NCBI GenBank assembly: GCA_017628755.1 | Contig: JAGBYM010000159.1 | Location: 1 to 60,408, forward strand | From: Clostridia bacterium | GTDB lineage: Bacteria > Bacillota > Clostridia > Oscillospirales > CAG-272 | DNA: 60,408 nucleotides | Direction: 5' to 3' | Shown: in pieces, positions 22,250-49,072 of the stretch | Layout of the letters: the number at the start of each line of letters is the position of its first letter | Position numbering within the stretch: position 1 is the stretch's first letter | Notes under the pieces: model-generated | Databases searched by the model: none | What the model was told of the DNA's origin: nothing | Seen by the model: only the letters and a program-made list of their open reading frames with translations | Translations under genes and position numbers: made by a program

Positions 22250-22252
22250 GTT

Positions 22253-25900: not shown

Positions 25901-28900
25901 GTTCCCACCGCTCACAAGTGGGAAAGCGAGTTCACGGTAGATAAGAAGGCTACCTGCACTGAAGTAGGTCAGAAGAGCTATCATTGCGAATACTGCGATA
26001 CCCAAAACACCGAATCGGTCACTGAAATTGCAAAGAGAGCGCATAATTACGTTGACACTACCGTAAATACTGCGCCTACCTGCCAGTTGCCCGGTACTAT
26101 GAATCAGAAGTGCGCGCACGAGGCTTCGGATGAATACGAGGCTTGTACTTCGACAACCACAAGAGTAATTGACAAAGACCCCAACGCTCACGGTTGGGAA
26201 ACCGAATATACGGTAGACCAAAAGGCTTCCTGCTTCCAAACGGGTAAGATGAGCTATCACTGTGCATACTGTGATGTGATCAACCCCGAATCGGTAGTCA
26301 CAATTGAAGTCAGAGAGCATAATTTTGTTGATACTACTGTCGAAGAGCCTTCTACTTGTACAGTAGACGGTATCATGAATCAGAAGTGCGATCACGCGGC
26401 TTCCGATGAATATTTGGCGTGTAATGCAACCACTACCAGACCGTACAAAGACCCCAACGCACATAAGTGGGCAACCACTTATACCGTAGACTGGAAGGCA
26501 ACGTGTGATGCTGACGGTCAGATGAGCTATCATTGCGTATACTGCGGCGTAGTCAATACCGAATCCGCAGTTGCGATCGAAAAGAGAGCTCACGTATACA
26601 AGGATAACGGAGTACATACCGCGGCTACGTGTAGTGCAGAGGGTGTGATGTATACGATCTGTACCAACATCGAAACCGATACACATAAAGCTTGTACTCA
26701 TGAATCCACCAGAGAGATTCCGATTGATCCCAATGCTCACAAGTGGGAAACTACTTACACAGTAGACAAAAAGGCTTCCTGCTCTGAAGCAGGTCAGAAG
26801 AGCTATCACTGTGAATACTGTAACACGATCAATGAGGCTTCCAAGGTCGTTATCGAGCAGAGAGCACATGATCTCAAGGATACTACAGTTCAGCTCGCTG
26901 CTACCTGCTCGGCAGCCGGTATTATGAATCAGGAATGTGTTCATGAAGCTATCGATGAATACGAGGCTTGCGATTACACTACTACAAGAGAAATCGCGAT
27001 CAATCCCTCCGCTCATGAGTGGGACAATCCTTCTTACACATGGTTAGGCAAAGAATGCCAGGCTGAACGTGTTTGTAAACACAACAATGCACACAAAGAG
27101 TCCGCTTACGCTGATGGCGAGTCTGTTACCTCCTCTGTCAAGATTCCCGCTACCTGTGAGGTAGCAGGAACTACTACCTATACGGCAGTATTCGATGGCG
27201 TAGAATGGACGGTTCCCCAGAAAATGGATCTCCAGGATATTTCCGCGCTTGGTCACAAATGGAGCGTAAGCTACGCTTGGACTCAGGAGGCGGACAAGTG
27301 GATTTGTACCGCAACACATACCTGCGCAAACAGCGATAGCTGTACCGAAACCAAAAAGGTTGAGGCAAGCAGCGGAGTCAAGACTCCCGCAACCTGTACC
27401 GTAGACGGATGGACTACCTACACTGCAACTTTTGAGGCAACGTGGGCAAAAACCCAGACTCGGGAAGAGCAGGATATCCCCGCGATCGCACACAAGAACA
27501 AGGTTCATCATGCTAAAGTTGACGCAACCTGTGTGGCAACCGGTGTAATCGAATACTGGTCCTGCCCCGACTGCGGAAAGAACTTCTCTGATGAAGCTTG
27601 CACTACCGAGGTAACGAAGCTTACTATAGAGATCGATTCCAATAACCACGATCTTAAGACAACCGATGCCAAGGCACCGACCTGTGAAGATATCGGTTGG
27701 GATGAGTACGTAACCTGTCAGAGAGAGGGTTGCGGACATACGACTTATGTCGAAATCACTGCGCTCGGTCATGATTACGACGAAACCAAGAACGAATCAA
27801 ACCTTACAAGACCCGTAAAGAACGGTGACACTTGGTCTGACGGTTATTATACCTTCACTTGTAAGAATGATCCGTCTCATACGAAGACCGAATCTGTCAA
27901 GAGAGCGGATTATACCGCTTATGAGGCTGCAAAGAGCGAACTCGAGAGTCTTCTTGCGCTTGACCTGACTGCTGAGGCAAAGGCGGAAATCAATAACGTG
28001 CTTGCTGCCAACGAGTTGGATGACAACCTCATCGAAGCAGAGAAGATAAGCGTTGATACCGCAACCGCGAATCTGACTGCGGCGTATAATGCATATAAGA
28101 ATGCATTCAATTCCTATACCGTAAACTTCGTTGTAAACGGCGAAACGGTCAAGACCGAAACCGTTGTCAGCGGCGGTAAGGCAACCGCTCCCGAAAATCC
28201 CGCTAAATCTTATGATGGTACCTATCATTATAGCTTCTCGGGTTGGGATAATGCGTTCGATAATGTTACCGCAGATGTGACTGTAACTGCACAGTTCACT
28301 TCGATCGCGCACACTTTCACGTCTCATACCGACAAGGACGACACCGTTCATACCGACAAGTGCGCTTGCGGCTATGAAACCGATGTTGCTCACAGCTATA
28401 ACAGCGGAGTTGTTACAACACCTTCCACTTGTATCGAAAAGGGCGTAAAGACGTTTACCTGTTCGCTCTGCTCTGGTACGAGAACCGAAGAAGTTGATTT
28501 CGATGCCGCAAACCATGCAAGCAAAGATTATGAATACGTTGATAATGACAACGGAACTCATATCAAGAAGTACGCTTGCTGTGAGGTTGTGATCGAATCT
28601 TCCGAGAATCATATTTATAACGCAGTTGGCGAATGTGCTTGTACAAACAAGGCTGAAGCAAAGCTCGGCGGAACCTACTATTACAAGTTCGTTGATGCCG
28701 TTGCCGCTGCTGCGAACGGTCAGACAGTTACTCTCTGCCGCGATGCGGTTGGAGCGGGTGTTGTGATCGACAAGTCAATCACCATCGATTTCGGCGGTTA
28801 TACCTACACCTTCAATTGCCCCGTAGGCTCTTCGGGTACCGAAACTCTCGGTTTCCAGATCTTTGAGGGTAACAGCGTAACCCTTAAGAACGGTACTCTT

Positions 28901-31900
28901 ACCGCAAATGACGGAACAAATGCTAACGGCAAGGTGACCAAGGTTCTTGTTCAGAACTACGCGAACCTGACCGTAGATAATATGAATCTTATCGGAAACG
29001 ATAATATCCAGTATTGCCTCTCCAACAACAGTGGTGAGATCAATATCACCGGTAACACTACAATTACCGCAACAGGCGATAACGTAGCGTTCGACGTATA
29101 TTATTACGAAGGCTACGAAGCTCCCGTTGTAAACGTAAATACCACAGGTAAGATCACGGGTAAGATCGAGGTTTCCGAATCGATCAATGACAATTTGAAT
29201 ATTTCAAACGGTACTTATACCTTTGAGATCAAGCCGGAATGGTGCGCAGATACTTATGAGGTTACTTATAACTCTGCTGACGGTACCTACGGTGTTAAGA
29301 AGCACTATGTTGCCGCTATCGGCGATATTCAGTACACTTCTTTGAAGGATGCTGTTGATGCTGCTAAGCCCGGCGAAACTATCACTCTGCTCGGTAACGA
29401 TACCGGTTCGGGTGTCGTGATCGACAAGGCGATAACCGTTGATTTTAAGGGTTATACTTACACCGTAAACTCTCCCGTAGGTTCTGCGGGAACCGAAACT
29501 CTCGGATTCCAGATCCTTGCGGACGGCGTAACGCTTAAGAACGGTGCTCTTGCCGCAAATGACGGAACAAACGAGCACGGCAAGGTCACCAAGGTTCTCA
29601 TTATGACCTACGCTGATCTGAATGTTGACGGACTTACTCTTAGAGGCAACAGCAATATTCTTTACTGTCTCTCCGTCAATAGCGGAACAGTTACCGTAAA
29701 TAATTCCACTATTATTGCAACTGCGGGTAACGTGGCGTTTGATGCTTGTAAGTATTCAAGCTACGAAATACCCAATGTTATCCTTACCAATACAAACGTA
29801 ACCGGTAAGGTTGAGCTCACCGGCGGTAACGTAACGCTTGAAAGCGGCACGTATAATGCTGATTTCGATGTTCAGTTGGGTGAGCTTACCGTAAAGGGCG
29901 GTTCTTACTCTACGAACGTTACCGAGTACTGTGTTCCCGGCGACCATACCGCTCCCGATGGTAATCTTTACACCTACGGTGCTCATGATTACAGTTCTGT
30001 TTACACCGCACCTACCTTCGATGCGGACGGCTTCACCACCTATACCTGTATCTGCGGCGATGTATATGTGACTACCGAAGAGGGATCACAGAAGATCGCA
30101 GTTGCAAAGATCGGTGACGTGAGATACGAATCTCTCGCAGAAGCTGTTGCGGCAGCACAGGAAAACGATACTATCCTTCTTGTTAAGGATACTGTTGGTT
30201 CGGGTGTTGTAATCGACAAGTCGATCACCATCGACTTCGGCGGTTATACCTACACCTTCAATTGTCCCGTAGGTTCTTCCGGTACCGAAACTCTCGGTTT
30301 CCAGATCCTTGCAGGCAACATCGTAACGCTTAAGAACGGTACTCTTACCGCAAATGGCGGAACAAATGCTAACGGCAAGGTGACCAAGGTTCTTGTTCAG
30401 AACTATGCTGACTTGACCGTTGAGAACATGAGCCTCGAAGGTAACGAAAACATTCTCTATTGTCTTTCTATCAACAGCGGTAGCGTGGAGATCAAGAATT
30501 CCACTATCACCGCAACAGACGGAAACGCAGCATTTGATGCTTGTAAGTACAGCACATACGCAATGCCTGACGTTAAGGTCGAAAACTCCACCATCGTTGG
30601 TAAGGTTGAGATCACAGGCGGTGACGTAGATCTTATGAGCGGAGATTATACCGAGGCAACCTTCGACGTTCAGTTGGGCGAGTTCACCGTCAACGGTGGC
30701 AGCTTCGCTCAGAATGTTACCGAGTACTGTGCTACCGGTTATCATACCGTCCTTAAGAACGGCATTTACGAATACGGTGCGCATACCTACTCCGAACCTC
30801 AGATCTTCAGATTCTGTGAAGAGGAAGGCTACATCCAGATCACTTGTCCCGATTGCGGAAACACTTACGATTCCCGCTCGGATAAGGAAGCAGAGATCTA
30901 TCTCAATGAGAATACTGTAGATCTGACTCCTCTTCGCCACGATTGGACAGTAACCTATAGCTTTGCGGTAGACGGATCGGCTTGCACCGCAACCCGCGTA
31001 TGCGGACACGATAACAGCCACAAGGAAACTGCGACAGCAACTATCACTTCCGATGTAACCACTCCCGCTACTTGCGAGGTAAAGGGTAAGACCACCTATA
31101 CTGCAACATTTGCCGAAGATTGGGCAGAGGGGCAGACATTGGAGGTAGAAGACGTAGATGCTCTTGACCATGATTGGACAGTAACCTACAGTTTTGCGGC
31201 AGACGGATCTGCTTGCACTGCTACTCACGTATGCGGACGCAACGCAGAACACAACGTAACAGTTGATGCTACCGCTATCACTTCCGAAAGAACTCCTCCC
31301 ACTACTTGCGAGGCAAAGGGTAAGACCACTTATACCGCAACATTTGCCGAAGATTGGGCAGAGGCACAGACATTGGAGGTAGAAGACGTAGATGCTCTTG
31401 GCCATGATTGGACAGTAACCTACGATTTTGCAGATGACGGATCTGCTTGCACCGCAACCCGCGTATGCGGCCGCAATGCAGAACACAACGTAACAGTTAA
31501 TGCTACCGCTATCACTTCCAATGTAACCACTCCCGCTACTTGCGAGGCAAAGGGTAAGACCACCTATACCGCAACATTTGCCGAGGATTGGGCAGAGGGA
31601 CAGACATTGGAGGTAGAAGACGTAGATGCTCTTGACCATGATTGGACAGTAACCTACGATTTTGCAGCTGACGGATCTGCTTGCACCGCAACCCGCGTAT
31701 GCGGACACGATGCAAATCATACTGATACTGCCACTGCAATTATAAGCAGTGTGGTGGAGACTCCCGCAACCTGTACCGAGGACGGTACAACTCTCTACAC
31801 CGCAACCTTTGAGGAAGCGTGGGCAGAAACCCAAACAAAGTTGGTAACAGATATACTTAAGCTTAATCACGATTACGTCATAAGCTATGTTTGGAGTGAA

Positions 31901-34900
31901 AACGGTAAATCCTGTGAGGCGGTAAGAGAGTGTAAAAACGATGCCCGCCACAGAGCAAACGAAAAGGTATCTGCAAGCGGCTCCATTGAAACTCCTGCAA
32001 CCTGTACCGAGAAGGGTTGGACCACCTACACTGCAAACTTTACCGCAGTTTGGGCAACATCTCAGACCCTTGATATGCAGGATATCCCCGCAATTGCTCA
32101 CAAGAACAAGGTACATCACGCAAAGGTCGATGCAACCTGTATCTCGGAAGGAACCATCGAATACTGGTCCTGCCCTGACTGTAACATGAACTACAGCGAT
32201 GTTGATTGTACAGCAAAGGTAACGGATCTTGTAATTCCGATCAATTCCGATAACCACGCAACCACCACCAATCACGTACAGACCGATGAAACCTGCGTAA
32301 GCGTGGGTTACACAGCCGGTACCTTCTGTGAAGATTGTGATAAGTGGATTTCGGGACACGAAGAGATACCCGCAATCGGTCATAAGAACAAGGTACATCA
32401 CGCAAAGGTCGATGCAACTTGTATTGCTTCGGGAACCATCGAATACTGGTTCTGCCCCAACTGTAACAAGAACTACAGCGATGAGGCTTGTACCGAAGTT
32501 GCAACCGATCTTGTGATTTCGCTCGATTCCCAAAACCACGTAAATACCATAGATCACGAAAAGACAGATGAAACCTGCGTAAGTATTGGTTACACAGCCG
32601 GCACCTTCTGTGAAGACTGTGAAAAGTGGATTGAGGGACACGAAAGAATCCCCGCAATTGCTCATAAGAACAAGGTACATCACGCAAAGATCGATGCAAA
32701 TTGCTCCGAAGCAGGAGCGATCGAGTACTGGTTCTGCCCCGACTGTAACAAGAATTACAGCGATGAGGCATGTACTGACGAAGTAACCGAAGTTGTAATA
32801 CCGATCAAGCCTGATAACCATGTAAATACCATCAATCACGGACAGACCGATGAAACCTGCGTAAGTGTTGGTTACACCGCCGGTACCTTCTGTGAAGACT
32901 GTGAAAAGTGGATCGCGGGACACAACGAGATCCCCGCAATCGCTCATAAGAACAAGGTACATCACGCAAAGATTGATGCAACCTGTATCTCGGAAGGAAT
33001 CATTGAATACTGGTCTTGCCCCGACTGTAGCAAGAACTACAGCGATGAGGCTTGTACTGTTGTGGCAACCGATCTTAGAGCTTTCGCACCCGATAACCAT
33101 GTAAACACTACCGATCATGTACAGACCGATGCAACCTGCCTTACCGTAGGTTACACCGCAGGCGTGTTCTGTGAGGATTGTGATAAGTGGATCTCGGGAC
33201 ACGAGGAGATTCCCGCAATCGCTCATAAGAACAAGGTACATCACGCCAAGGTTGATGCAACCTGTATCTCGGAAGGAACTATCGAATACTGGTTCTGCCC
33301 CGACTGTAACAAGAACTACAGCGATGAGGCTTGCACTGTTGAGGCAACAGAGATCAAGACTTCCGCACCCGATAACCACGTAAACACTACCGCTCACGTA
33401 CAGACCGATGCAACCTGCCTTACCGTAGGTTACACCGCAGGCGTGTTCTGTGAGGATTGTGATAAGTGGATCTCGGGACACGAGGAGATCCCCGCAATTG
33501 CCCATAAGAACAAGGTACATCACGCAAAGGTCGATGCAACCTGTATCTCGGAAGGAACTATTGAATACTGGTCCTGCCCCGACTGTAACAAGAACTACAG
33601 CGATGTTGATTGTACAGTAGAGGTAACAGAGTTTGCGATTCCGATCAATTCCGATAACCACGTAAATACCACAGCTCACGTAGACATCCCCGCGACCTGC
33701 TTAACCGTAGGTTACACATCCGGTACCTACTGTGAAGATTGTGACAAGTGGATTGCAGGATATGAAGAGATTCCCGCAATTGCCCACAAGAACAAGGTTT
33801 ATAACGCAAAGGTCGATGCAACCTGTGTTGCGAAAGGTACTATTGAACATTGGTTCTGCCCCGACTGTAACAAGAACTACATTGATGAAGCTTGCACAGA
33901 AGTAGCAGCAAATATCAATATTGATATCGAGCCCGGAAATCATAAGCCCGAAACTGTTGAAGCTGTGGCTCCCACATGTACCGAATCCGGACTTACGGAA
34001 GGAAGCCGTTGCGGATTGTGCGGCAAGATCTTTGTAGCTCAGGAAATCGTTGATGCTCTCGGACACACCGATGGTGAGGCGGTTTACGAAAACGTTATCG
34101 AAGCTACCTGTATCGGTTACGGATCTTATGATACGGTTGTTTACTGTACTGTATGTAACACCGAACGGAGCCGTAAATACATCGAAGTTGAGCCCACTGA
34201 GATTCATGATTACATAGTCGAATACCGCTGGAGCGGTACCAGATACTGCGCTGCTATCATCACTTGTGAAACCTGTGATCTTGACAAAACAGTTCAGGGT
34301 ACGATCACTCCTCCCGTGTACTACGAAGGCGATTGCCAGAATTACGGTAAGACAGTCTATACCGTAACCTTCAGCGCCGCTCAGATGGAAATGTATGACT
34401 GCCTTGAAACTCAGGAAAAGGAAATTACCGGAGCAAAGGGCGATCACATCTATTCATACATCGCAGATGCTGACGTGCATTGGAGTAAATGTACCGTATG
34501 CGGTGAAGAGTCCTCCAAGACTGCTCACGATTTCAGCGCGGGCGATTGTATATGCGGTGAAGGCAAGCCGATTACCGAGATCCCCCTTGGTATCAAGGAA
34601 TATGATGCCGAAACCGACAGCGGATATACCGTAAGAGAAAACGTTGTTACCGTTAAGTACAGCGAAGCTTGCGCGGTAGGTTATCTTGTTGACGGAGAGT
34701 ACGTTGCCATCGAGGCTGTAAAGAACGATGACGGAAGCTATAGCTTCACAGCTCCCGAGGGAGTGAATGAGGTTCTGGTCGTTGTTATCGGTGATATTGA
34801 CGGCGACGGCGACGTTGACGAAGCTGACATAGATCTTATGGCAGGTTCTCAGATGCCCGAAGGCGAATCGCTTACGGCAAAACAGCATTTTGCGGCAGAC

Positions 34901-34999
34901 ATCAACCGCAACGGAGTGGTCAACTCCGCTGACAGAGTATGGATCGCTCGCAGCTTGCTTGATAAAACAAATGATTTTTACAAAGCTCTGAGTTGGTAA
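22958..34999 (+). CDS. Giant (4013 aa) secreted modular protein: N-terminal beta-rich region, His/Cys-rich module arrays, three beta-helix-like modules, C-terminal dockerin
   Basis: Single uninterrupted ORF with an AAGGAGG RBS. Signal peptide MNISVEKRFLSLLLAFIMVFSLFPWWTLDVGAAS, with no lipobox Cys. Repeat families are listed as separate features. Ends in a dockerin. Confidence 0.85.
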   Translation: MNISVEKRFLSLLLAFIMVFSLFPWWTLDVGAASYKTETGSIGNIGYSVKVPITSDKKEDLGSFNVNGNTINASAKSEYKYDNGGCFSDPSVTFTATTITITLTNNSGSDAVIGFLFDGGSTVTVSGVSIGTGGNYVSPKLEHGASIEIAMKSPATGTPYVEQKYGVGDTFNLNLNDIYLQIKETVTIEYDAVANGTYTVDGVSVQEKSSKQIDTTQDIVLVATPADGYVFAGWKNLTTGKYFSFESSVTTKFSSNASFEPSFVWGGDVAWAISGSQYATLDDALAAVTPGYTITQIKETVTLTKNYTIPAAVTLFIPCDTEYTVCTDQPNVMDSYIATPTPFRTLVLANNVKLTVQGNICVEGSQAPDQGYNGAPTGPVGFIRMASGSEIILESGANLYAWGYITTDGINGEGTVTAKNGASVYECFQMMDFRGGSCLALGTSISDGGLGGIIGGIFGDNGMINNTKEVFPMSQYYIQNIEVPLTLNAGAVERAYMSTNAGGLSGSEIAGAIIPIISGSSESMFQLTSGTISKDFNESTGRIEFEIHNGALTVNSINMSMKLMGVQQTLNSANFILPIPGHMSVTASGNSTVIINQDIALFPGSEFVIEEGVHCTLPSGYKIIVYDADDWGGYCSSVNVPFCPLVYAPGRASVSMGNYDDDPNKRPVSLSGVPVDGLALTPDVEKDYGELGIHLISKAVMNDATVRINGTIDASGGAVYTTSGGANIYTTGSGVVITKPGTETTTYQATQAASTPSYLPITITPAVMRDGNGDAFETAGVEGTSTYNYCTESGHNKWYNINSTDSTTVTPPTCVDVGYTTVACKCGSSYKTAEVPATGIHTPGDAVVENTVAETCGKDGSYDSVVYCTVCSQELSRNKITVPATGKHTEVIDAVVPATCTATGLTEGKHCSVCNAVLVAQNVTAALGHTFETVGAKAPTCSATGNIEHKKCTACSKFFAADAANDSTAGNDTAEAFNLPIVPTAHKWESEFTVDKKATCTEVGQKSYHCEYCDTQNTESVTEIAKRAHNYVDTTVNTAPTCQLPGTMNQKCAHEASDEYEACTSTTTRVIDKDPNAHGWETEYTVDQKASCFQTGKMSYHCAYCDVINPESVVTIEVREHNFVDTTVEEPSTCTVDGIMNQKCDHAASDEYLACNATTTRPYKDPNAHKWATTYTVDWKATCDADGQMSYHCVYCGVVNTESAVAIEKRAHVYKDNGVHTAATCSAEGVMYTICTNIETDTHKACTHESTREIPIDPNAHKWETTYTVDKKASCSEAGQKSYHCEYCNTINEASKVVIEQRAHDLKDTTVQLAATCSAAGIMNQECVHEAIDEYEACDYTTTREIAINPSAHEWDNPSYTWLGKECQAERVCKHNNAHKESAYADGESVTSSVKIPATCEVAGTTTYTAVFDGVEWTVPQKMDLQDISALGHKWSVSYAWTQEADKWICTATHTCANSDSCTETKKVEASSGVKTPATCTVDGWTTYTATFEATWAKTQTREEQDIPAIAHKNKVHHAKVDATCVATGVIEYWSCPDCGKNFSDEACTTEVTKLTIEIDSNNHDLKTTDAKAPTCEDIGWDEYVTCQREGCGHTTYVEITALGHDYDETKNESNLTRPVKNGDTWSDGYYTFTCKNDPSHTKTESVKRADYTAYEAAKSELESLLALDLTAEAKAEINNVLAANELDDNLIEAEKISVDTATANLTAAYNAYKNAFNSYTVNFVVNGETVKTETVVSGGKATAPENPAKSYDGTYHYSFSGWDNAFDNVTADVTVTAQFTSIAHTFTSHTDKDDTVHTDKCACGYETDVAHSYNSGVVTTPSTCIEKGVKTFTCSLCSGTRTEEVDFDAANHASKDYEYVDNDNGTHIKKYACCEVVIESSENHIYNAVGECACTNKAEAKLGGTYYYKFVDAVAAAANGQTVTLCRDAVGAGVVIDKSITIDFGGYTYTFNCPVGSSGTETLGFQIFEGNSVTLKNGTLTANDGTNANGKVTKVLVQNYANLTVDNMNLIGNDNIQYCLSNNSGEINITGNTTITATGDNVAFDVYYYEGYEAPVVNVNTTGKITGKIEVSESINDNLNISNGTYTFEIKPEWCADTYEVTYNSADGTYGVKKHYVAAIGDIQYTSLKDAVDAAKPGETITLLGNDTGSGVVIDKAITVDFKGYTYTVNSPVGSAGTETLGFQILADGVTLKNGALAANDGTNEHGKVTKVLIMTYADLNVDGLTLRGNSNILYCLSVNSGTVTVNNSTIIATAGNVAFDACKYSSYEIPNVILTNTNVTGKVELTGGNVTLESGTYNADFDVQLGELTVKGGSYSTNVTEYCVPGDHTAPDGNLYTYGAHDYSSVYTAPTFDADGFTTYTCICGDVYVTTEEGSQKIAVAKIGDVRYESLAEAVAAAQENDTILLVKDTVGSGVVIDKSITIDFGGYTYTFNCPVGSSGTETLGFQILAGNIVTLKNGTLTANGGTNANGKVTKVLVQNYADLTVENMSLEGNENILYCLSINSGSVEIKNSTITATDGNAAFDACKYSTYAMPDVKVENSTIVGKVEITGGDVDLMSGDYTEATFDVQLGEFTVNGGSFAQNVTEYCATGYHTVLKNGIYEYGAHTYSEPQIFRFCEEEGYIQITCPDCGNTYDSRSDKEAEIYLNENTVDLTPLRHDWTVTYSFAVDGSACTATRVCGHDNSHKETATATITSDVTTPATCEVKGKTTYTATFAEDWAEGQTLEVEDVDALDHDWTVTYSFAADGSACTATHVCGRNAEHNVTVDATAITSERTPPTTCEAKGKTTYTATFAEDWAEAQTLEVEDVDALGHDWTVTYDFADDGSACTATRVCGRNAEHNVTVNATAITSNVTTPATCEAKGKTTYTATFAEDWAEGQTLEVEDVDALDHDWTVTYDFAADGSACTATRVCGHDANHTDTATAIISSVVETPATCTEDGTTLYTATFEEAWAETQTKLVTDILKLNHDYVISYVWSENGKSCEAVRECKNDARHRANEKVSASGSIETPATCTEKGWTTYTANFTAVWATSQTLDMQDIPAIAHKNKVHHAKVDATCISEGTIEYWSCPDCNMNYSDVDCTAKVTDLVIPINSDNHATTTNHVQTDETCVSVGYTAGTFCEDCDKWISGHEEIPAIGHKNKVHHAKVDATCIASGTIEYWFCPNCNKNYSDEACTEVATDLVISLDSQNHVNTIDHEKTDETCVSIGYTAGTFCEDCEKWIEGHERIPAIAHKNKVHHAKIDANCSEAGAIEYWFCPDCNKNYSDEACTDEVTEVVIPIKPDNHVNTINHGQTDETCVSVGYTAGTFCEDCEKWIAGHNEIPAIAHKNKVHHAKIDATCISEGIIEYWSCPDCSKNYSDEACTVVATDLRAFAPDNHVNTTDHVQTDATCLTVGYTAGVFCEDCDKWISGHEEIPAIAHKNKVHHAKVDATCISEGTIEYWFCPDCNKNYSDEACTVEATEIKTSAPDNHVNTTAHVQTDATCLTVGYTAGVFCEDCDKWISGHEEIPAIAHKNKVHHAKVDATCISEGTIEYWSCPDCNKNYSDVDCTVEVTEFAIPINSDNHVNTTAHVDIPATCLTVGYTSGTYCEDCDKWIAGYEEIPAIAHKNKVYNAKVDATCVAKGTIEHWFCPDCNKNYIDEACTEVAANINIDIEPGNHKPETVEAVAPTCTESGLTEGSRCGLCGKIFVAQEIVDALGHTDGEAVYENVIEATCIGYGSYDTVVYCTVCNTERSRKYIEVEPTEIHDYIVEYRWSGTRYCAAIITCETCDLDKTVQGTITPPVYYEGDCQNYGKTVYTVTFSAAQMEMYDCLETQEKEITGAKGDHIYSYIADADVHWSKCTVCGEESSKTAHDFSAGDCICGEGKPITEIPLGIKEYDAETDSGYTVRENVVTVKYSEACAVGYLVDGEYVAIEAVKNDDGSYSFTAPEGVNEVLVVVIGDIDGDGDVDEADIDLMAGSQMPEGESLTAKQHFAADINRNGVVNSADRVWIARSLLDKTNDFYKALSW
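25910..27010 (+). repeat. Four tandem ~92-aa Cys-rich modules (273-276 nt period)
   Basis: Units start with AH(K/G)W at 25910, 26186, 26459 and 26735. Consensus: AHKWET.YTVDKKA(T/S)C...G..SYHC.YC....ES...I..R.H...D......TC...G.M...C.......AC. Confidence 0.85.
27011..27477 (+). repeat. Two diverged ~78-aa modules of the HxW...TPATC..G.TTYTA.F type
   Basis: HEWDNPSYTW..CQAERVCKHN..IPATCEVAGTTTYTAVF and HKWSVSYAW..CTATHTCANS..TPATCTVDGWTTYTATF. These are the same family as the 30938-32083 array. Confidence 0.7.
28661..30783 (+). repeat. Three ~217-264-aa beta-helix-like modules
   Basis: Modules start near 28661, 29312 and 30104 with (K/A)(L/I)G...Y..L..AV.AA..G.TI.L, then GSGVVIDK.IT.DF.GYTYT...PVGS.GTETLGFQI....VTLKNG.L.ANDGTN..GKVTKVL. 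Modules 1 and 3 share a ~77-nt stretch with one mismatch (about 28884-28960 vs 30329-30405). Confidence 0.8.
30938..32083 (+). repeat. Five tandem 77-78-aa modules (231-234 nt period)
   Basis: HD(W/Y) unit starts at 30938, 31169, 31403, 31637 and 31868. Consensus: HDWTVTY.FA.DGSACTATRVCG.....H..T..A.ITS..T.PATCEAKGKTTYTATFAEDWAE.QTLEVEDVDAL. Confidence 0.9.
32084..34066 (+). repeat. Seven tandem 93-94-aa His/Cys-rich modules (279-282 nt period)
   Basis: IPAI(A/G)HKNKV unit starts at 32084, 32366, 32648, 32930, 33209, 33488 and 33770. An isolated eighth copy lies at ~27478. An 89-nt stretch is perfectly identical between 33122-33210 and 33401-33489. Confidence 0.9.
34790..34960 (+). other. 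Dockerin module
   Basis: GDIDGDGDVDEADIDLMAGSQ ... ADINRNGVVNSADRVWIARSLL. Confidence 0.8.
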
Positions 35000-35042
35000 A
35001 AATTCATTATAACACACATATAAATTGAGGAGGAATCCTGAA

Positions 35043-36740
35043 ATGAAAAATGGATTACTTAAATCGTTTTCGTTGATATTGGCTTTGTGCATGATGCTTA
35101 CAAGCATGAGCATCGTTGTCATTGCGTCCGATGTCAGCAAACTTGACATTAGCGGCGGAAGCGTTGAATTGGATGTTACCAATGCAGGCACTGTAACTAT
35201 CAGTGTTGTTGCTAAAGAAGAACTTACCTTCTACGGTATTGAAGGAAGTTTTGATATCAATGAGGGTGAAAATAAATATTTCACCCTGAAGGATATCACT
35301 TCCGACTGTATTGTGTTCGAAAATACCGAGAACAATTTTGCAGACGTCGAGACCGGTGAAGTTGTTTGGGTCGATGAGTCCTTCACAGCGTCCGCAACCG
35401 CTGCGGGAACCAATATCCTTACCGCTACTTATGAGGTGGCTGCAAACACCCCTGACGGTAAGTACACCTTAAGCTTTACTTCTTCGGTTTTCACCGGTGC
35501 AACCGGTGATCCCGATGAGACTGATACCGTATTCGAGGCAACGATCACTGTTACTCACAAGTGTAAGGCAGAGGAACAGGCTGCTAAGAAGGCAGAGTGC
35601 GAAATTGACGGTTGGAAGGCTTATTATCAGTGTCCTCATTGCGGCAAGTGCTATATCGATGCAGCCGCTACCGATCTGATTGCAGATATCGACGCTTGGA
35701 AGCTTGCTGACGGTAAGATTCCCGCAATCTCTCACAAGGATGAGAACAAGGACCATGTTTGTGAAAACGAATGCGGCAAGCCTGTAGGTGAGTGTGTTGA
35801 CACAGATAAGGATCACAAGTGTGACTACGGCTGCGGCAAGGACTACGGAACCCACGAGGATACCGATAAGAACCATGTTTGTGATCACGGTTGTTCCGTA
35901 GCGATCGGTGAATGCGCAGACACAAACAATGACCATGCTTGTGACTACGGATGTGACAAGGTGCACGGAGTTCATGAGGACATCGGCAAGGATCACCTTT
36001 GCGATTACGGTTGCGCCAAGCTTATCGGAAAATGCGAAGATACCGACTTTGACCATAAGTGTGACTACGGATGCACCCAGCTTTACGGCTTGCATAAAGA
36101 CGGCAACAATGACCACGTCTGTGATTACGGATGTAAGGAAGCAATCGGCGCATGTGAGGACAAGGATCCCCTTGACCACAAGTGCGACTACGGCTGCGGC
36201 AAGGCTATAACCGCTTGCAAGGATTGCCTTAAGAAGACCGAGGCTGTTCCCGCATACTGCGAGACTCCCGGTAACACCGAGTACTATACTTGTACCGTTT
36301 GCGGAAAGTTCTATTCCGATGCTCTGGCTGCAACCGAGATCGAGAAGGACTCCTGGATCATCAAGGCTACCGATCATAAGTGGTCAACAACTGCTTCGTA
36401 TACCAATAACGGTAACGGAACTCATACAGCTACTTATACCTGTGACAACAATGCAGAGCACACCTACTCGGATGCTCCCGCAGCTCACGTATACGTTGAA
36501 GGCTTCTGCGTATGCGGTGCGGATGAGTCGCTTGCGGGCTATATGAAGGGTGACGTTAACCTCGACGGTGAAATAGATTCAGAGGACCTTACTATTCTTG
36601 CGCGTCATATTGCAAAGATTGAGCATATTACCGATCTCGTTGCACTTGACAATGCAGATATTACCTCTGATGGAGATATTTCTTCTGATGACCTTACCAA
36701 GCTTGCACGTCACGTTGCAAAGATCGAATCCATTTCTTAA
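35043..36740 (+). CDS. Secreted 565-aa protein: cohesin-like N-domain, 8 x DHxCDYGC repeats, Cys-rich modules, dockerin
   Basis: ATG at 35043 preceded by GGAGG. Signal peptide MKNGLLKSFSLILALCMMLTSMSIVVIAS. No terminator separates it from the 4013-aa gene, so it is probably co-transcribed. Confidence 0.8.
   Translation: MKNGLLKSFSLILALCMMLTSMSIVVIASDVSKLDISGGSVELDVTNAGTVTISVVAKEELTFYGIEGSFDINEGENKYFTLKDITSDCIVFENTENNFADVETGEVVWVDESFTASATAAGTNILTATYEVAANTPDGKYTLSFTSSVFTGATGDPDETDTVFEATITVTHKCKAEEQAAKKAECEIDGWKAYYQCPHCGKCYIDAAATDLIADIDAWKLADGKIPAISHKDENKDHVCENECGKPVGECVDTDKDHKCDYGCGKDYGTHEDTDKNHVCDHGCSVAIGECADTNNDHACDYGCDKVHGVHEDIGKDHLCDYGCAKLIGKCEDTDFDHKCDYGCTQLYGLHKDGNNDHVCDYGCKEAIGACEDKDPLDHKCDYGCGKAITACKDCLKKTEAVPAYCETPGNTEYYTCTVCGKFYSDALAATEIEKDSWIIKATDHKWSTTASYTNNGNGTHTATYTCDNNAEHTYSDAPAAHVYVEGFCVCGADESLAGYMKGDVNLDGEIDSEDLTILARHIAKIEHITDLVALDNADITSDGDISSDDLTKLARHVAKIESIS
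35130..35557 (+). other. Cohesin-like beta-sandwich domain (tentative)
   Basis: About 142 aa: LDISGGSVELDVTNAGTVTISVVAKEELTFYGIEGSFDINEG..FTLKDI...TNILTATYEVAANTPDGKYTLSFT. This is pattern resemblance to cohesins only. No HMM was run. Confidence 0.35.
35751..36227 (+). repeat. Eight tandem 20-aa acidic His/Cys repeats (60-nt period), alternating G.C.D and G.H.D endings
   Basis: DHVCENECGKPVGECVDT / DKDHKCDYGCGKDYGTHEDT / DKNHVCDHGCSVAIGECADT / NNDHACDYGCDKVHGVHEDI / GKDHLCDYGCAKLIGKCEDT / DFDHKCDYGCTQLYGLHKDG / NNDHVCDYGCKEAIGACEDK / DHKCDYGCGKAITACKDC. Confidence 0.9.
36549..36728 (+). other. Dockerin module (sequence type distinct from the other two)
   Basis: GDVNLDGEIDSEDLTILARHIAKIE ... 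ADITSDGDISSDDLTKLARHVAKIE. Confidence 0.8.
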
Positions 36741-36777
36741 CTGACAGCGTTCGATCAAAAATAATCTTTTTGTGAAG

Positions 36778-36813
36778 AAGCGCTCCATACCCGGAGGGTA
36801 TGGAGCGCTTTTC
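36778..36813 (+). terminator. Rho-independent terminator ending the dockerin-protein block
   Basis: GCGCTCCATACCC-gga-GGGTATGGAGCGC followed by TTTT. Confidence 0.75.
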
Positions 36814-36885
36814 TGACCGCATTTGAAACATGATAAGGATTTTGTCGTATTTCAAATACGGTTAGAAAATATTAAGGGGTATATA

Positions 36886-44184: not shown

Positions 44185-44775
44185 TTGAAGCAAACTTTAA
44201 AGAAAATTTGGAATATCGTTTCAACGGTACTTGTTGTCGTTGTAGTGGTATTTGCGATCCTTTTGGTAGGTCTGCGATTTGTCGGAGTGCAGGTATACTC
44301 GGTCATATCGGGATCGATGGAGCCGGAATATCCGGTCGGCGCGCTGATCTACGTTAAGGAAGTGGACGCATATGAGGTTGAGGTCGGCGACGTAATCACC
44401 TTTGTGCTCTCAAACGATATGCCTGCAACGCACCGCGTAATAGATATTGATTACGAAACTCAGCATTTCTATACGCGCGGAGACGCGAACTACAGCATAG
44501 ACGAAGCGACAGGCGAAAAGGTCTATACAGAGGACCCGGCCGTACACTTCAAGAACCTTATCGGAAAGCCGGTATTCACAATACCGCTTCTCGGATACGT
44601 CGCGTATTATATCCAGCACCCGCCGGGAATGTATATCGCACTCGCGGTCGGAGCAATAATCCTCGCGCTTGCCTTCCTGCCCGATATCTTTGCAAAATCG
44701 GATAAGAAGAAAACTCCCGCGGAGGACAACCCCGCACCCACCCCCGCCGAAGACGGCGACAAAAACGATGGCTAA
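44185..44775 (+). CDS. sipW: SipW-type (archaeal/ER-type, S26B) signal peptidase I
   Basis: 196 aa with a TTG start after AGGGAGGAG. N-terminal TM, catalytic SGSMEP, THRV His box and GDAN. A second TM and a charged Pro/Ala/Asp tail follow. Confidence 0.85.
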   Translation: MKQTLKKIWNIVSTVLVVVVVVFAILLVGLRFVGVQVYSVISGSMEPEYPVGALIYVKEVDAYEVEVGDVITFVLSNDMPATHRVIDIDYETQHFYTRGDANYSIDEATGEKVYTEDPAVHFKNLIGKPVFTIPLLGYVAYYIQHPPGMYIALAVGAIILALAFLPDIFAKSDKKKTPAEDNPAPTPAEDGDKNDG

Positions 44776-44838
44776 GCCGCAAGGCTCCATAATAAAACAG
44801 AAAAAATTTAAATTTTCATTTTAAAGGAGGTTTTCAAA

Positions 44839-45453
44839 ATGAAAACAAGAACCAAAGCATTACTTCTCGTAATGTCCGCACTGCTGCTCGTAGTCAGCAC
44901 AGTATTCGCAACCATGGCGTATCTTACATCATCTGTTAAGATCACCAACACTTTTACCGTTGGTAATGTAACTATTACTATGGATGAAACCGATGTTAAC
45001 GCTTATGGCGACTCCAACGGAACTCGTTCTGCAAATGGCAACCAATACAAACTCATTCCCGGTCATCGATATATCAAGGATCCTATTATTCACGTTGTAG
45101 CCGGAAGTGAAGAGTGCTATCTTTTTGTAAAGCTTGAAGACGGACTTGCTGATATTCAGGATGCTGATACTATTGCTACACAGATGGTAGCGGCGGGTTG
45201 GGAGAAGGTTTCTAGTGCTACTAATGTTTGGGTTTATACAAAGACCGCAACTCATACTGTCGATGCTAGAAACGAAGCGAAGGATGTACCGCTTTTCACT
45301 TATTTTAAACTTTTAGGAACTGCAGACGTTGCAAGTTATGGTTCAGCAAATATTACTGTTCAGGCTTGCGCAATCCAGGCGGATGGCTTCCCCACTTGGA
45401 ACGATGCATGGACAACCGGACTTTCTTCTACTTTCCCCACTGTTAGCCCGTAA
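44839..45453 (+). CDS. TasA/camelysin/BsaA-like SipW-substrate protein, paralogue 1
   Basis: 204 aa. Signal peptide then ATMAYLTSSVKITNTFTVGNVTITMDE. Also KLIPGHRYIKDPIIHV and C-terminal ACAIQ. Confidence 0.75.
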   Translation: MKTRTKALLLVMSALLLVVSTVFATMAYLTSSVKITNTFTVGNVTITMDETDVNAYGDSNGTRSANGNQYKLIPGHRYIKDPIIHVVAGSEECYLFVKLEDGLADIQDADTIATQMVAAGWEKVSSATNVWVYTKTATHTVDARNEAKDVPLFTYFKLLGTADVASYGSANITVQACAIQADGFPTWNDAWTTGLSSTFPTVSP

Positions 45454-45488
45454 TTTTGATTGTTAAGTAAAGAGAGGAATATTTAATA

Positions 45489-46058: not shown

Positions 46059-46077
46059 TATTTTTTGAATCAATATT

Positions 46078-46695: not shown

Positions 46696-46732
46696 CTAAT
46701 CTACCACATAATTTCAGAAAGGAATTTTTAAA

Positions 46733-47506: not shown

Positions 47507-47539
47507 TTAATGTAATAGTATTGAAAGGACTATAAAATT

Positions 47540-48262: not shown

Positions 48263-48283
48263 CCCATATAGAGGACATAAAAG

Positions 48284-48994: not shown

Positions 48995-49013
48995 TTGAAG
49001 ATATCTTGACACT

Positions 49014-49072
49014 CTGCTCCCTAAAAAGGGAGCAGGGTGTATATGACGTTCTTGGGTTTAAACCGAAGAACG
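49014..49072 (+). terminator. Two adjacent hairpins after paralogue 6 (possible terminator and/or palindromic operator; no U-tract)
   Basis: CTGCTCCC-taaaaa-GGGAGCAG (49014-49035), then the 26-bp near-perfect palindrome CGTTCTTGGGTTT/AAACCGAAGAACG (49047-49072). Confidence 0.35.

What the first reader, a model, noticed from the sequence alone, without database searches (positions are those of the whole stretch)
35043..36740. Cohesin-like plus dockerin adaptor carrying a novel-looking DHxCDYGC 20-aa repeat stalk
Seen: after the signal peptide there is a ~142-aa beta-rich domain. Its strand pattern and motifs (FYGIEGSFDINEG..FTLKDI, TATYEVAANTPDGKYTLSFT) resemble cohesins. Eight exact-period 20-aa repeats follow, with invariant DH.C(D/E)(Y/H/N)(G/E)C....G and an alternating final (C/H).(D). 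This gives a 40-aa super-repeat that is rich in Asp, His and Cys. Next come Cys modules like those of the 4013-aa neighbour, then a dockerin of a different sequence type (LARHIAKIE) from the two upstream proteins (ADRIMLARTLL / ADRVWIARSLL). Inference: if the N-domain is a cohesin, this protein could bind the dockerins of the two co-transcribed giants and plug into another scaffold through its own dockerin. That would make a self-contained three-protein cohesin-dockerin assembly with no evident glycoside hydrolase. The acidic Cys-bracketed repeats are reminiscent of calcium-binding, disulfide-stapled repeats such as thrombospondin type 3, and could form a rigid metal-dependent stalk.
Basis: partly seen in the sequence, partly recalled or inferred. 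Interest (0 to 1): 0.65.

Follow-up and report, generated by a model that had tools for sequence, protein, structure and literature searches.

The report
Cohesin-dockerin adaptor with Cys/His repeat stalk
This gene encodes a secreted connector protein of a gut Clostridia-type bacterium: a divergent cohesin at one end, probably to hold the giant neighbouring surface protein, a dockerin at the other end to plug into a wall anchor, and between them a widespread but undescribed 20-residue Asp/His/Cys repeat that looks metal-binding.

Summary
Window 35043-36740 (+) encodes a 565-aa secreted protein. In order it has a signal peptide, a 144-aa beta domain, one Cys module, eight tandem 20-aa repeats, two Cys modules and a bona fide dockerin.

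The N-domain has a cohesin fold. Its AF2 model has pLDDT 91.5, the top Foldseek PDB hits are all cohesins, and a family profile hits solved cohesins at E 2e-5. It stays below Pfam's Cohesin threshold.

In 8 of 9 loci that encode this N-domain family, the gene immediately upstream ends in the same dockerin class as the 4013-aa neighbour. The N-domain proteins themselves carry five different anchors: dockerin, choline-binding-like repeats, SLH, a sortase-type signal and a TM helix. In two loci, a wall-anchored protein with a second, weakly cohesin-like N-domain follows directly. This supports an adaptor role in a cargo-adaptor-anchor hierarchy. The assembly is not self-contained, because no anchor cohesin lies in this window.

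The repeat consensus is xDx[DN]x[DN]HxCDYGCxxx[IFY]Gx[C/H]. It has no Pfam, NCBIfam or PDB relative, but it occurs in about 650 protein clusters, with up to 35 units per protein. Free Cys/His exchange at position 20 argues for a zinc-type ligand set and against disulfide staples. Cohesin-dockerin binding and metal binding remain untested.

The parts
35027..35033 (+). Ribosome-binding site GAGGAGG, 9 nt before the ATG
   Evidence: Read directly from the sequence.
35043..36740 (+). Gene for the 565-aa secreted cohesin-like/dockerin adaptor protein
   Evidence: ORF list and translation. An identical protein, P0001, is in the public collection.
35043..35126 (+). Signal peptide, aa 1-28, MKNGLLKSFSLILALCMMLTSMSIVVIA|SD
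   Evidence: Read from the sequence. The N-terminus is conserved in orthologues. Cys16 is not conserved (Ser in P0005, P0121 and L001), so this is not a lipobox.
35127..35558 (+). Divergent cohesin-fold domain, aa 29-172
   Evidence: - Pfam Cohesin: 14.8 bits for the whole protein and 18.4 bits for the domain alone, both below the 24.1-bit cut-off.
- Family profile against PDB: the top 5 hits are all cohesins, best E 2.2e-5.
- AF2 model: pLDDT 91.5.
- Foldseek against PDB: the top 15 hits are all cohesins, E about 1e-6, TM 0.46-0.65.
35559..35735 (+). Cys module 1, aa 173-231 (C..C-x10-C-x2-C...H type)
   Evidence: Matches repeated modules of the 4013-aa neighbour and of many homologues.
35736..36218 (+). 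Eight tandem 20-aa Asp/His/Cys repeats, aa 232-392, consensus xDx[DN]x[DN]HxCDYGCxxx[IFY]Gx[C/H]
   Evidence: - Layout in the target.
- Consensus from 379 unique units.
- Family size of 646 representative clusters.
- No Pfam, NCBIfam or PDB relative.
- AF2 model is low confidence, pLDDT 45.7.
36219..36527 (+). Cys modules 2-3, aa 393-495
   Evidence: Protein aa ~404-445 (residues 173-214 of the 219-aa query) matches chain 9qa6_A (IgA protease) residues 861-903, E 0.0038. The modules also match those of the 4013-aa neighbour.
36528..36737 (+). Class-B dockerin with two near-identical segments (DLTILARHIAKIE and DLTKLARHVAKIE)
   Evidence: Pfam Dockerin_1 E 6.7e-9, above the cut-off. Matches solved dockerins, best E 1.3e-9. 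Class comparison is in alignment A4.
36776..36812 (+). 17-bp GC-rich hairpin followed by TTTTCT: probable intrinsic terminator ending the operon
   Evidence: RNAfold of 36741-36822 gives -34.8 kcal/mol. The simple consensus scan did not list it.
22958..34999 (+). Upstream 4013-aa surface protein, the probable cargo. Its class-A dockerin is at 34790-34960. The stop codon lies 43 nt before the target's ATG.
   Evidence: Pfam Dockerin_1 E 4.6e-7. Matches solved dockerins at E 7.5e-13. The same gene pair is present in L001 and L008.
17265..21545 (+). 1426-aa protein with NAGPA, Big_2 and a class-A-like dockerin (21327-21497): a possible second cargo
   Evidence: Pfam NAGPA E 3.7e-35 and Dockerin_1 E 2.1e-6. 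Its dockerin lacks the FYKALSW tail. A hairpin at 21562-21596 follows the gene.

Best explanation
The protein is a secreted adaptor scaffoldin of a non-cellulolytic cohesin-dockerin display system.

- **N-terminal domain.** The divergent cohesin-fold domain binds class-A dockerins, which end in ...NSADRVxxARSLL...FYKALSW. The 4013-aa protein encoded immediately upstream carries one, and the 1426-aa NAGPA protein may carry a usable one.
- **C-terminal domain.** The internally symmetrical class-B dockerin plugs the complex into a second cohesin on a cell-wall-anchored protein. That protein is encoded elsewhere in this genome. In relatives it is the next gene downstream.
- **Middle region.** Three Cys/His modules and eight 20-aa repeats form an extended spacer held together by metal. 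Each 20-aa unit offers one His, two Cys and one Cys-or-His as a tetrahedral zinc-type ligand set. It also offers a D-x-[DN]-x-[DN] acidic loop plus Asp10 that could take calcium. The spacer sets how far the cargo is held from the wall. The locus sits inside a capsule/EPS gene cluster, so the cargo may need to reach through that layer.

**Status of each step.** Shown: domain identities, cohesin fold, dockerin classes, conserved gene pairing, repeat conservation pattern. Inferred: which dockerin binds which cohesin, metal binding, rod-like shape, and the link to the capsule.
For: **Cohesin fold**
- AF2 model pLDDT 91.5, pTM 0.86.
- The top 15 Foldseek PDB hits are all cohesins, probability 1.00.
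- A profile of 9 family members hits only cohesins in the PDB (5n5p E 2.2e-5, 5m2o, 5aoz, 5m2s, 4ums).
- Pfam Cohesin is the only recurrent weak hit: 5 of 9 members, best E 7.9e-4.

**Gene pairing**
- A gene ending in a class-A dockerin lies immediately upstream of the N-domain gene in the window and in L001, L002, L003, L005, L006, L008 and L010. That is 8 of 9 loci. The dockerins are aligned.

**Anchor swapping**
- The same N-domain is fused to five anchor types: class-B dockerin, choline-binding-like repeats (L002, P0074), SLH (L003/P0067), NPQTG plus TM (L010) and TM (L004).
- This fits a wall-distal receptor module that must be tethered somehow.

**Third layer**
- In L005 and L006 the next gene encodes a signal peptide, a different cohesin-like domain, Cys modules and choline-binding-like repeats.
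- For that domain, the top six PDB profile hits are type II cohesins, E 0.004-0.04.

**Variable spacer**
- Family members range from N-domain plus dockerin only (P0121, 242 aa), through Cys modules only (P0005, P0012, P0016), to 8-9 repeats (target, P0002, P0003). The longest has about 17 repeats plus a GDSL domain (L001, 2081 aa).
- P0025 has a Pfam-valid cohesin, then the same repeats, then CW_binding_2, with a dockerin protein encoded upstream.

**Metal-ligand pattern**
- H7, C9 and C13 are 100% conserved.
- G12 is 98% and G18 is 97% conserved.
- D2 is 99% and D10 is 96% conserved.
- Position 20 is C in 52% and H in 46% of units, and all-C and all-H arrays both exist.

**Related modules**
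- The flanking Cys modules resemble a Cys-containing segment in the C-terminal part of the T. ramosa IgA protease chain 9qa6_A. That this segment lies in the protease's CTD2/CTD4 domains is my inference; the residue numbers were not checked.
- CTD2/CTD4 were predicted to bind zinc, and SAXS showed CTD2 to be an extended rod (PMC12415215).

**Context**
- The surrounding genes are a capsule/EPS cluster.
Against: - No member of the N-domain family reaches Pfam's Cohesin cut-off: best 18.4 bits against 24.1.
- TM-scores to cohesins are moderate, 0.46-0.65.
- No binding test or complex prediction could be run.
- No partner cohesin for the class-B dockerin is in the 60-kb window.
- The anchor proteins' N-domains are only weakly cohesin-like: Pfam gives no hit and PDB profile E-values are 0.004-0.04.
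- AF2 gives no confident structure for the repeat array: pLDDT 45.7 and no secondary structure. Rod shape and metal sites are therefore inferred from conservation alone.
- Gene adjacency could reflect co-regulation of surface proteins rather than physical pairing.
Confidence: 0.6

Rival explanations
1. The protein is itself a displayed cargo, not an adaptor. Its N-domain is a cohesin-shaped beta-sandwich used as an adhesin or glycan-binding tip, and only the C-terminal dockerin takes part in cohesin-dockerin assembly. Adjacency to class-A dockerin genes reflects a shared surface-protein operon.
For: - Pfam Cohesin is below threshold.
- Foldseek also lists GH123 N-terminal domains and fimbrial subunits at lower TM.
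- The L001 orthologue carries a GDSL esterase domain, as a cargo enzyme would.
- The N-domain family is rare: about 15 proteins in 5.8 billion.
Against: - Sequence profiles hit only cohesins.
- A class-A dockerin gene lies immediately upstream in 8 of 9 loci across 29-81% N-domain identity.
- The N-domain always sits at the end far from five interchangeable anchors, like the cohesin of an anchoring scaffoldin.
Confidence: 0.2
2. One reading: the 20-aa units are calcium-binding, disulfide-stapled repeats of the thrombospondin type 3 kind.
For: - The D-x-[DN]-x-[DN] loop plus D10 is conserved at 96-99% and resembles EF-hand/TSP3 calcium loops.
- The protein is extracellular.
Against: - Pfam TSP_3 gives no hit at E <= 0.1.
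- Units have 2 or 3 Cys, an odd count in half of them.
- Position 20 swaps freely between Cys and His, and all-His arrays exist. A disulfide partner would not tolerate that.
- An invariant His sits next to the Cys pair.
- Variant units in relatives carry CxxC (DHxCDVCG), the spacing of a zinc knuckle.
Confidence: 0.1
3. The repeat array is mainly a metal-handling element, and spacing is secondary. It could be a surface zinc/nickel/copper sponge or reservoir, metallothionein-like, or a redox or metal sensor that changes stalk stiffness.
For: - The array is 18% Asp, 13% Cys and 8% His.
- Other proteins carry up to 34-35 units, which means large metal capacity.
- AF2 sees no fold without metal.
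Against: - The exact 20-residue period and the invariant Gly12, Gly18, Tyr11 and hydrophobic position 17 point to a defined fold.
- Arrays always lie between functional domains and anchors in multidomain surface proteins.
Confidence: 0.1

Closest known systems
Adaptor scaffoldins of multi-layer cellulosomes, such as Ruminococcus flavefaciens ScaA/ScaB and Acetivibrio cellulolyticus ScaB
   Same: - One polypeptide carries a cohesin of one specificity and a dockerin of another, linking cargo to an anchoring scaffoldin.
- The best sequence and structure matches of the N-domain are R. flavefaciens ScaB cohesins (5n5p, 5m2o, 5aoz).
- The genes are clustered.
   Different: - There is a single, highly divergent cohesin below the Pfam threshold.
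- No plant-cell-wall enzymes or CBMs are present. The cargo is a 4013-aa Cys-module/beta-helix-like surface protein, and perhaps an NAGPA protein.
- The linker is a Cys/His metal-type stalk rather than Pro/Thr linkers or X modules.
- The locus lies in a capsule/EPS cluster.
Non-cellulosomal cohesin-dockerin systems, such as the Ruminococcus bromii amylosome (named from my own knowledge). Solved R. bromii Amy dockerins appear among the target dockerin's PDB hits.
   Same: Cohesin-dockerin pairs are used by gut Clostridia to assemble and tether non-cellulolytic surface proteins.
   Different: The cohesin subfamily is different, there are no amylases, and the repeat stalk is present.
CTD2/CTD4 (beta3, beta4 and beta6) domains of the Thomasclavelia ramosa IgA protease (PMC12415215, PMC12402451)
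   Same: - Both have extracellular Cys/His modules with no curated family. The protease's modules were predicted to bind zinc, and SAXS showed CTD2 to be an extended rod; CTD2 and CTD4 were proposed as spacer ('periscope') domains.
- The target's flanking Cys modules match a segment in the C-terminal part of the IgA protease chain, E 0.0038. Assigning that segment to CTD2/CTD4 is my inference.
- An H-x-C-x4-C...H element there resembles the core of the 20-aa unit.
   Different: - The 20-aa unit itself has no significant match to that chain.
- It lacks the beta-sheet segments and is tandemly iterated at an exact period.
- Zinc binding has not been shown experimentally in either protein.
Thrombospondin type 3 repeats
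   Same: Both are acidic DxDxD loops interleaved with Cys in an extracellular tandem array.
   Different: - Pfam TSP_3 gives no hit.
- The unit has an invariant His.
- Cys and His interchange at position 20, so it cannot be a fixed disulfide framework.
Periscope proteins (SasG, Aap, Rib-domain proteins)
   Same: A repeat region acts as a variable-length stalk. Orthologues carry 0, 8-9 or about 17 units.
   Different: - The repeats here are diverged at DNA level: 59% identity and no TRF array. This is not recent recombinational length switching.
- The unit is 20 aa, not a folded 70-130-aa domain.

Membership tests
Cohesin (Pfam PF00963) | Match to the Pfam Cohesin HMM at or above the gathering score of 24.1 bits | tested here: not met
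   The whole protein scores 14.8 bits (E 0.033) and the domain alone 18.4 bits (E 0.0025). Five of 9 family members hit, best E 7.9e-4.
Cohesin (Pfam PF00963) | Beta-sandwich fold that superimposes on solved cohesins | tested here: met
   AF2 pLDDT 91.5. The top 15 Foldseek PDB hits are all cohesins, probability 1.00, E 1e-6 to 5e-5, TM 0.46-0.65.
Cohesin (Pfam PF00963) | Profile-level sequence homology to experimentally defined cohesins | tested here: met
   The A1 profile against the PDB returns five hits, all cohesins, best 5n5p at E 2.2e-5.
Cohesin (Pfam PF00963) | Calcium-dependent binding of a dockerin on the 8-3-6-5 face | not testable with these tools
   No complex prediction or experiment was available. 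The only support is indirect: a class-A dockerin gene lies immediately upstream in 8 of 9 loci.
Dockerin type I (Pfam PF00404) | HMM match above the gathering score | tested here: met
   36.3 bits against 22.9, aa 502-558. Solved dockerins match down to E 1.3e-9.
Dockerin type I (Pfam PF00404) | Two duplicated calcium-loop-plus-helix segments | tested here: met
   Read from the sequence: DVNLDGEIDSEDLTILARHIAKIE and DITSDGDISSDDLTKLARHVAKIE.
Adaptor scaffoldin (cellulosome sense) | A cohesin and a dockerin of different specificity on one polypeptide | tested here: met
   The protein has the domain order described above. Its own dockerin (class B) differs from the neighbours' (class A).
Adaptor scaffoldin (cellulosome sense) | Its dockerin is received by an anchoring scaffoldin | tested here: inconclusive
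   No second cohesin is in the window. In L005 and L006 a protein with a cohesin-like domain and choline-binding-like repeats is encoded directly downstream of the orthologue.
Adaptor scaffoldin (cellulosome sense) | The cargo consists of plant-cell-wall-degrading enzymes | tested here: not met
   The dockerin-bearing proteins have no GH or CBM. Pfam finds only a dockerin in the 4013-aa protein and NAGPA plus Big_2 in the 1426-aa protein.
Thrombospondin type 3 repeat (Pfam PF02412) | HMM match | tested here: not met
   Not among the Pfam hits at E <= 0.1.
Thrombospondin type 3 repeat (Pfam PF02412) | Fixed Cys framework forming disulfides | tested here: not met
   Units have 2 or 3 Cys. Position 20 is C in 52% and H in 46% of units, and all-H arrays exist.
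IgA-protease CTD2/CTD4-type Cys/His modules | Sequence similarity to the modules of the T. ramosa protease | tested here: met
   This holds for the flanking Cys modules only: protein aa ~404-445 (residues 173-214 of the 219-aa query) against 9qa6_A 861-903, E 0.0038. It is not met for the 20-aa repeat array.
Structural zinc-binding mini-domain | Four conserved Cys/His ligands per unit | tested here: met
   H7, C9 and C13 are 100% conserved and position 20 is C or H in 98% of 379 unique units.
Structural zinc-binding mini-domain | Actual zinc binding and tetrahedral geometry | not testable with these tools
   The AF2 model of the array is low confidence, pLDDT 45.7, and the tool returns no coordinates.
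Periscope proteins | Near-identical DNA repeats that give strain-level length variation | tested here: inconclusive
   DNA identity between units averages 59% and TRF finds no array. Orthologues nonetheless differ in unit number: 0, 8-9 or about 17.

The most novel reading that the evidence does not exclude
The 20-aa unit xDx[DN]x[DN]HxCDYGCxxx[IFY]Gx[C/H] is a new class of extracellular tandem mini-domain that binds one zinc per unit through His-Cys-Cys-(Cys/His), and perhaps one calcium through the DxDxD..D loop. Arrays of 8-35 units would then form a metal-dependent rigid rod. Anaerobic gut Clostridia would use it as a length-setting stalk in cohesin-dockerin and other surface-display systems. 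Its stiffness or integrity could respond to metal availability or oxidation.
Probability: 0.4. Interest if true: 0.7.

Novelty: new variant of a known kind. Interest (0 to 1): 0.55.

Why it matters
**A cohesin-dockerin system outside cellulose degradation.** Cohesin-dockerin assembly is mostly studied in cellulosomes. This locus and eight related loci point to a cargo-adaptor-anchor hierarchy that displays giant non-cellulolytic surface proteins in uncultured gut Clostridia. The system uses a cohesin subfamily that standard Pfam annotation misses. It pairs with a recognisable dockerin class ending in FYKALSW, which gives a concrete, testable specificity pair.

**An undescribed repeat.** The stalk repeat is found in hundreds of protein clusters, including proteins of 2000-6000 aa. 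It has no family model, no solved structure and no confident AlphaFold model. A conservation pattern typical of metal ligands makes it a good target for structure determination. It could also be a source of compact, modular, metal-stabilised spacers.

Tried and rejected
**Searches that gave nothing useful**
- AF2 on the eight-repeat array with a 24-row alignment gave pLDDT 45.7 and no secondary structure. It was useless for fold search, so no Foldseek run was made on it.
- Profile and single-sequence searches of the repeat against the PDB gave only chance hits, to maltose O-acetyltransferase and GANP at E around 1.
- Pfam and NCBIfam on the whole protein have nothing for aa 173-495.
- Two literature searches found no description of the repeat. 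The only relevant work was on the T. ramosa IgA protease.
- A profile search of the 5.8-billion-protein set with the N-domain added only 4 short relatives. The metagenome contig scan added one locus.

**Tests that did not discriminate**
- I tried to decide whether the fourth ligand comes from the same unit or the preceding one by looking at array ends. Both flanks carry C or H (77 of 86 and 84 of 86), so the test does not discriminate.
- An HMM search of all six frames of the window found no second cohesin of either the adaptor or the anchor type.
- hhalign of adaptor-type against anchor-type N-domains found no detectable similarity, probability 0.2. I treat them as distinct classes.

**Ideas rejected**
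- Lipoprotein: Cys16 of the signal peptide is not conserved and the lipobox is poor.
- TTG 35025 as the start codon: it lies inside the ribosome-binding site.
- The long antisense ORFs over the gene (for example 35469-36377, minus strand): I judged these to be by-products of the repeat composition; this was not tested.

The consensus terminator scan did not list the hairpin at 36776-36812. RNAfold does support it.
Full report
**1. What is there**

Window 35043-36740 (+) encodes a 565-aa protein. The ATG at 35043 is the real start. A GAGGAGG ribosome-binding site lies 9 nt upstream, and all orthologues begin MKNGLLK. The TTG at 35025 listed by the ORF finder sits inside that site.

The gene starts 43 nt after the stop of the 4013-aa gene. 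It is followed by a 17-bp GC-rich hairpin plus TTTTCT at 36776-36812. It is therefore probably the last gene of a transcription unit that also holds a 193-aa ORF, an Lgt-like gene and the 4013-aa gene.

The 1426-aa gene is separated from this unit by a 15-bp hairpin that lacks a clear U-tract. Its co-transcription is open.

The surrounding genes form a capsule/EPS cluster: sugar transferase, Wzy-like protein, GT2 and GT4 glycosyltransferases, hexapeptide acyltransferase and flippase.

**2. Domain anatomy**

| Region (aa) | Content |
|---|---|
| 1-28 | Signal peptide; Cys16 is not conserved in orthologues, so not a lipoprotein |
| 29-172 | Beta-rich N-domain |
| 173-231 | Cys module |
| 232-392 | Eight 20-aa repeats |
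| 393-495 | Two further Cys modules |
| 496-565 | Dockerin (Pfam Dockerin_1, 36.3 bits against a 22.9 cut-off) |

The two dockerin segments are nearly identical (DLTILARHIAKIE and DLTKLARHVAKIE). The Cys modules match many copies in the 4013-aa neighbour at 26-41% identity.

**3. The N-domain is a divergent cohesin**

- Pfam Cohesin is the only recurrent hit but stays below threshold: 14.8 bits for the whole protein and 18.4 bits for the domain, against 24.1. Five of nine family members hit, best E 7.9e-4.
- A profile of nine family members (A1) searched against PDB sequences returns five hits, and all are cohesins: 5n5p at E 2.2e-5, then 5m2o, 5aoz, 5m2s and 4ums.
- AF2 with that alignment gives a confident model: pLDDT 91.5, pTM 0.86, ten strands.
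- Foldseek against the PDB puts cohesins in the top 15 places with probability 1.00, E 1e-6 to 5e-5 and TM 0.46-0.65. Other beta-sandwiches, such as GH123 N-domains, come only at much lower TM.

I conclude that the fold and the remote homology are cohesin. The domain belongs to a rare, divergent subfamily of about 15 proteins in 5.8 billion.

**4. Comparative evidence for what the cohesin binds**

The three dockerins in the window fall into two sequence classes. Class A comprises the dockerins of the 4013-aa and 1426-aa proteins. Its second segment reads ADxNxNGxxNSADRxxxARxLL, and in the 4013-aa protein it ends ...FYKALSW. Class B is the target's own dockerin.

I collected every locus I could find that encodes an A1-type N-domain. 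The table shows the gene immediately upstream and what follows the N-domain gene.

| Locus | Upstream gene | N-domain protein and downstream gene |
|---|---|---|
| Window | 4013-aa protein, class A | Target, class-B dockerin |
| L001 | Giant protein, identical class-A dockerin type | 2081-aa orthologue |
| L008 | Class A, ...FYRALSW | P0003 |
| L005 | LRR-containing giant, ...IYKPFAW | P0029, then an anchor protein |
| L006 | Class A | P0016, then an anchor protein |
| L002 | 358-aa protein that looks cohesin-like by eye (no Pfam Cohesin hit) with a dockerin ending ...NYDPFVW | 757-aa protein |
| L003 | 315-aa protein that looks cohesin-like by eye (not tested) with a dockerin containing ...MYKALD | 787-aa protein |
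| L010 | Class A, ...AYQALTW | 985-aa protein |
| L004 | No dockerin gene | 290-aa TM-anchored protein, on a contig labelled Saccharibacteria |

The pairing therefore holds in 8 of 9 loci.

The N-domain proteins end in five different anchors:
- class-B dockerin;
- choline-binding-like repeats (L002, P0074);
- SLH (L003/P0067);
- NPQTG plus a TM helix (L010);
- a TM helix alone (L004).

A receptor module that always sits at the wall-distal end, always follows a gene with one dockerin class, and tolerates any anchor is what a cohesin of an anchoring or adaptor scaffoldin looks like.

In L005 and L006 the gene directly downstream of the adaptor encodes a signal peptide, a different cohesin-like domain, Cys modules and choline-binding-like repeats. 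For that domain the top six PDB profile hits are type II cohesins, at weak E-values of 0.004-0.04. It shows no detectable similarity to the adaptor's N-domain. That protein is the expected receptor for the class-B dockerin.

No such gene, and no second cohesin of either kind, exists in the 60-kb window. The system here is therefore not self-contained.

**5. The spacer is variable**

Between the constant N-domain and the anchor, family members carry different amounts of spacer:
- nothing (P0121, 242 aa);
- Cys modules only (P0005, P0012, P0016, about 350 aa);
- Cys modules plus 8-9 repeats (target, P0002, P0003);
- about 17 repeats, many Cys modules and a GDSL esterase domain (L001, 2081 aa, N-domain 81% identical).

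P0025 has a Pfam-valid cohesin (42.8 bits), one Cys module, the same 20-aa repeats and CW_binding_2 repeats. A dockerin-bearing 1666-aa protein is encoded just upstream of it. The repeat array thus recurs as the piece between a cohesin and its anchor.

**6. The 20-aa repeat**

In the target there are eight units. Seven spacings are 20 aa and one is 21 aa. Position 20 alternates C/H. The motif occurs nowhere else in any frame of the window.

From 379 unique units in 120 homologues, the consensus is x-D(99%)-x-[DN](97%)-x-[DN](99%)-H(100%)-x-C(100%)-D(96%)-Y(88%)-G(98%)-C(100%)-x-x-x-[IFY](83%)-G(97%)-x-[C 52% / H 46%].

The C/H alternation is frequent in the family but not required. All-C arrays (P0015, P0019) and all-H arrays (P0025, P0037) both exist.

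A profile of the array found 646 representative clusters at E <= 1e-3, 400 at E <= 1e-10 and 172 at E <= 1e-30, among 1.84 billion representatives. Many of these proteins are 2000-6000 aa long, with up to 34-35 units and perfect 20-aa spacing over 680 aa in P0126. Partner domains include LRR_5, Flg_new, beta-helix, SLH, CW_binding_2 and dockerin.

No Pfam or NCBIfam model covers the repeat, no PDB sequence is related, and the literature searches found no description. AF2 gives pLDDT 45.7.

**7. How the repeat probably works (inference)**

Each unit offers exactly four classical zinc ligands: His7, Cys9, Cys13 and Cys/His20. Free Cys/His exchange at one position is typical of a metal ligand. 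So are an odd Cys count in half the units and the CxxC variants in relatives (DHxCDVCG). None of this fits a fixed disulfide framework.

The acidic D2/[DN]4/[DN]6/D10 set has EF-hand-like 1-3-5-9 spacing and may bind calcium in addition.

The flanking Cys modules are related to a Cys-containing segment in the C-terminal part of the T. ramosa IgA protease. I take this segment to lie in that enzyme's CTD2/CTD4 domains, but the residue numbers were not checked. The authors predicted Cys/His zinc pockets in CTD2 and CTD4. SAXS showed isolated CTD2 to be an extended rod, and they proposed that these domains act as spacers (PMC12415215).

I therefore read aa 173-495 as a metal-stabilised extended stalk. 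I could not decide whether the fourth ligand comes from the same unit or the previous one.

**8.

- **Correct:** all sequence features, the cohesin-like nature of the N-domain, the different dockerin types and the adaptor idea.
- **Needs correction:**
  - The system is not self-contained.
  - The repeat is widespread rather than unique.
  - The thrombospondin/disulfide analogy fails on Pfam and on the C/H exchange.
  - An enzyme domain is present in the 1426-aa protein (NAGPA, E 3.7e-35).
  - Co-transcription of the 1426-aa gene is uncertain.

**9. Verdict**

This is a new variant of a known kind. It is a non-cellulosomal cohesin-dockerin adaptor built on a divergent cohesin subfamily. It carries an undescribed, widespread Asp/His/Cys repeat that is probably a metal-dependent stalk.

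| Claim | Confidence |
|---|---|
| Cohesin fold | about 0.9 |
| Adaptor role with class-A dockerin specificity | about 0.6 |
| Zinc-type metal binding by the repeat | about 0.55-0.6 |

None of the binding claims has been tested.

Noticed in passing
window 44185-49687 and 56287-56952: An S26 signal-peptidase gene (44185-44775, SipW-like) is followed by six or seven paralogous 190-260-aa proteins with N-terminal matches to Peptidase_M73 (camelysin/TasA family). These flank a 2019-aa Flg_new-repeat protein (49672-55731). The layout resembles a SipW/TasA-type fibre or biofilm-matrix operon expanded into a paralogue array.
   Followed up: partly
window 21668-22957: A 193-aa ORF with no family hit and a short Lgt-like gene sit directly upstream of, and abut, the 4013-aa dockerin protein gene. 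The Lgt-like product is 234 aa (Pfam LGT E 2e-20, far below the NCBIfam equivalog cut-offs). Why a prolipoprotein diacylglyceryl-transferase paralogue is in this operon is unexplained.
   Followed up: no
window 17265-21545: The 1426-aa protein combines an NAGPA phosphodiester glycosidase domain (E 3.7e-35), Big_2 and a class-A-like dockerin. It lies inside a capsule/EPS gene cluster, which suggests a dockerin-tethered enzyme acting on phosphodiester-linked surface glycans.
   Followed up: partly
window 22958-34999: In the 4013-aa protein Pfam recognises only the dockerin. By eye it contains three roughly 250-aa repeats (…VVIDKSITIDFGGYTYTF…GTETLGFQI…) that look beta-helix-like, and dozens of Cys modules of at least two types. 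The N-terminal ~750 aa have no annotation.
   Followed up: no
L001 7642-13887: The closest genomic orthologue is in a Eubacteriales MAG. It has an 81% identical N-domain, the same signal peptide and the same dockerin, but is 2081 aa long. It has about 17 of the 20-aa repeats, many more Cys modules and an internal GDSL/SGNH hydrolase domain. In that species the adaptor is also an enzyme carrier.
   Followed up: partly
L004 9980-10852: An A1-type N-domain (37% identity) occurs in a 290-aa protein with a low-complexity linker and a C-terminal TM helix. The contig is labelled Candidatus Saccharibacteria (roe deer jejunum) and has no dockerin gene upstream. Either the contig is mis-binned or the domain was transferred.
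   Followed up: no
L002 815-1891 and L003 3011-3958: Small 315-358-aa proteins appear, by eye only, to combine a cohesin-like domain with a class-A-type dockerin. Pfam gave no Cohesin hit for the L002 protein, and the L003 protein was not scanned. Each lies just upstream of the A1-type anchor protein. If the reading holds, these loci have yet another adaptor layer, giving chains of cohesin-dockerin adaptors.
   Followed up: partly
window 35469-36377 (minus strand) and other long antisense ORFs: Long stop-free antisense ORFs, up to 1221 aa, overlap the repeat-rich genes. They are probably a by-product of biased codon composition rather than genes.
   Followed up: no
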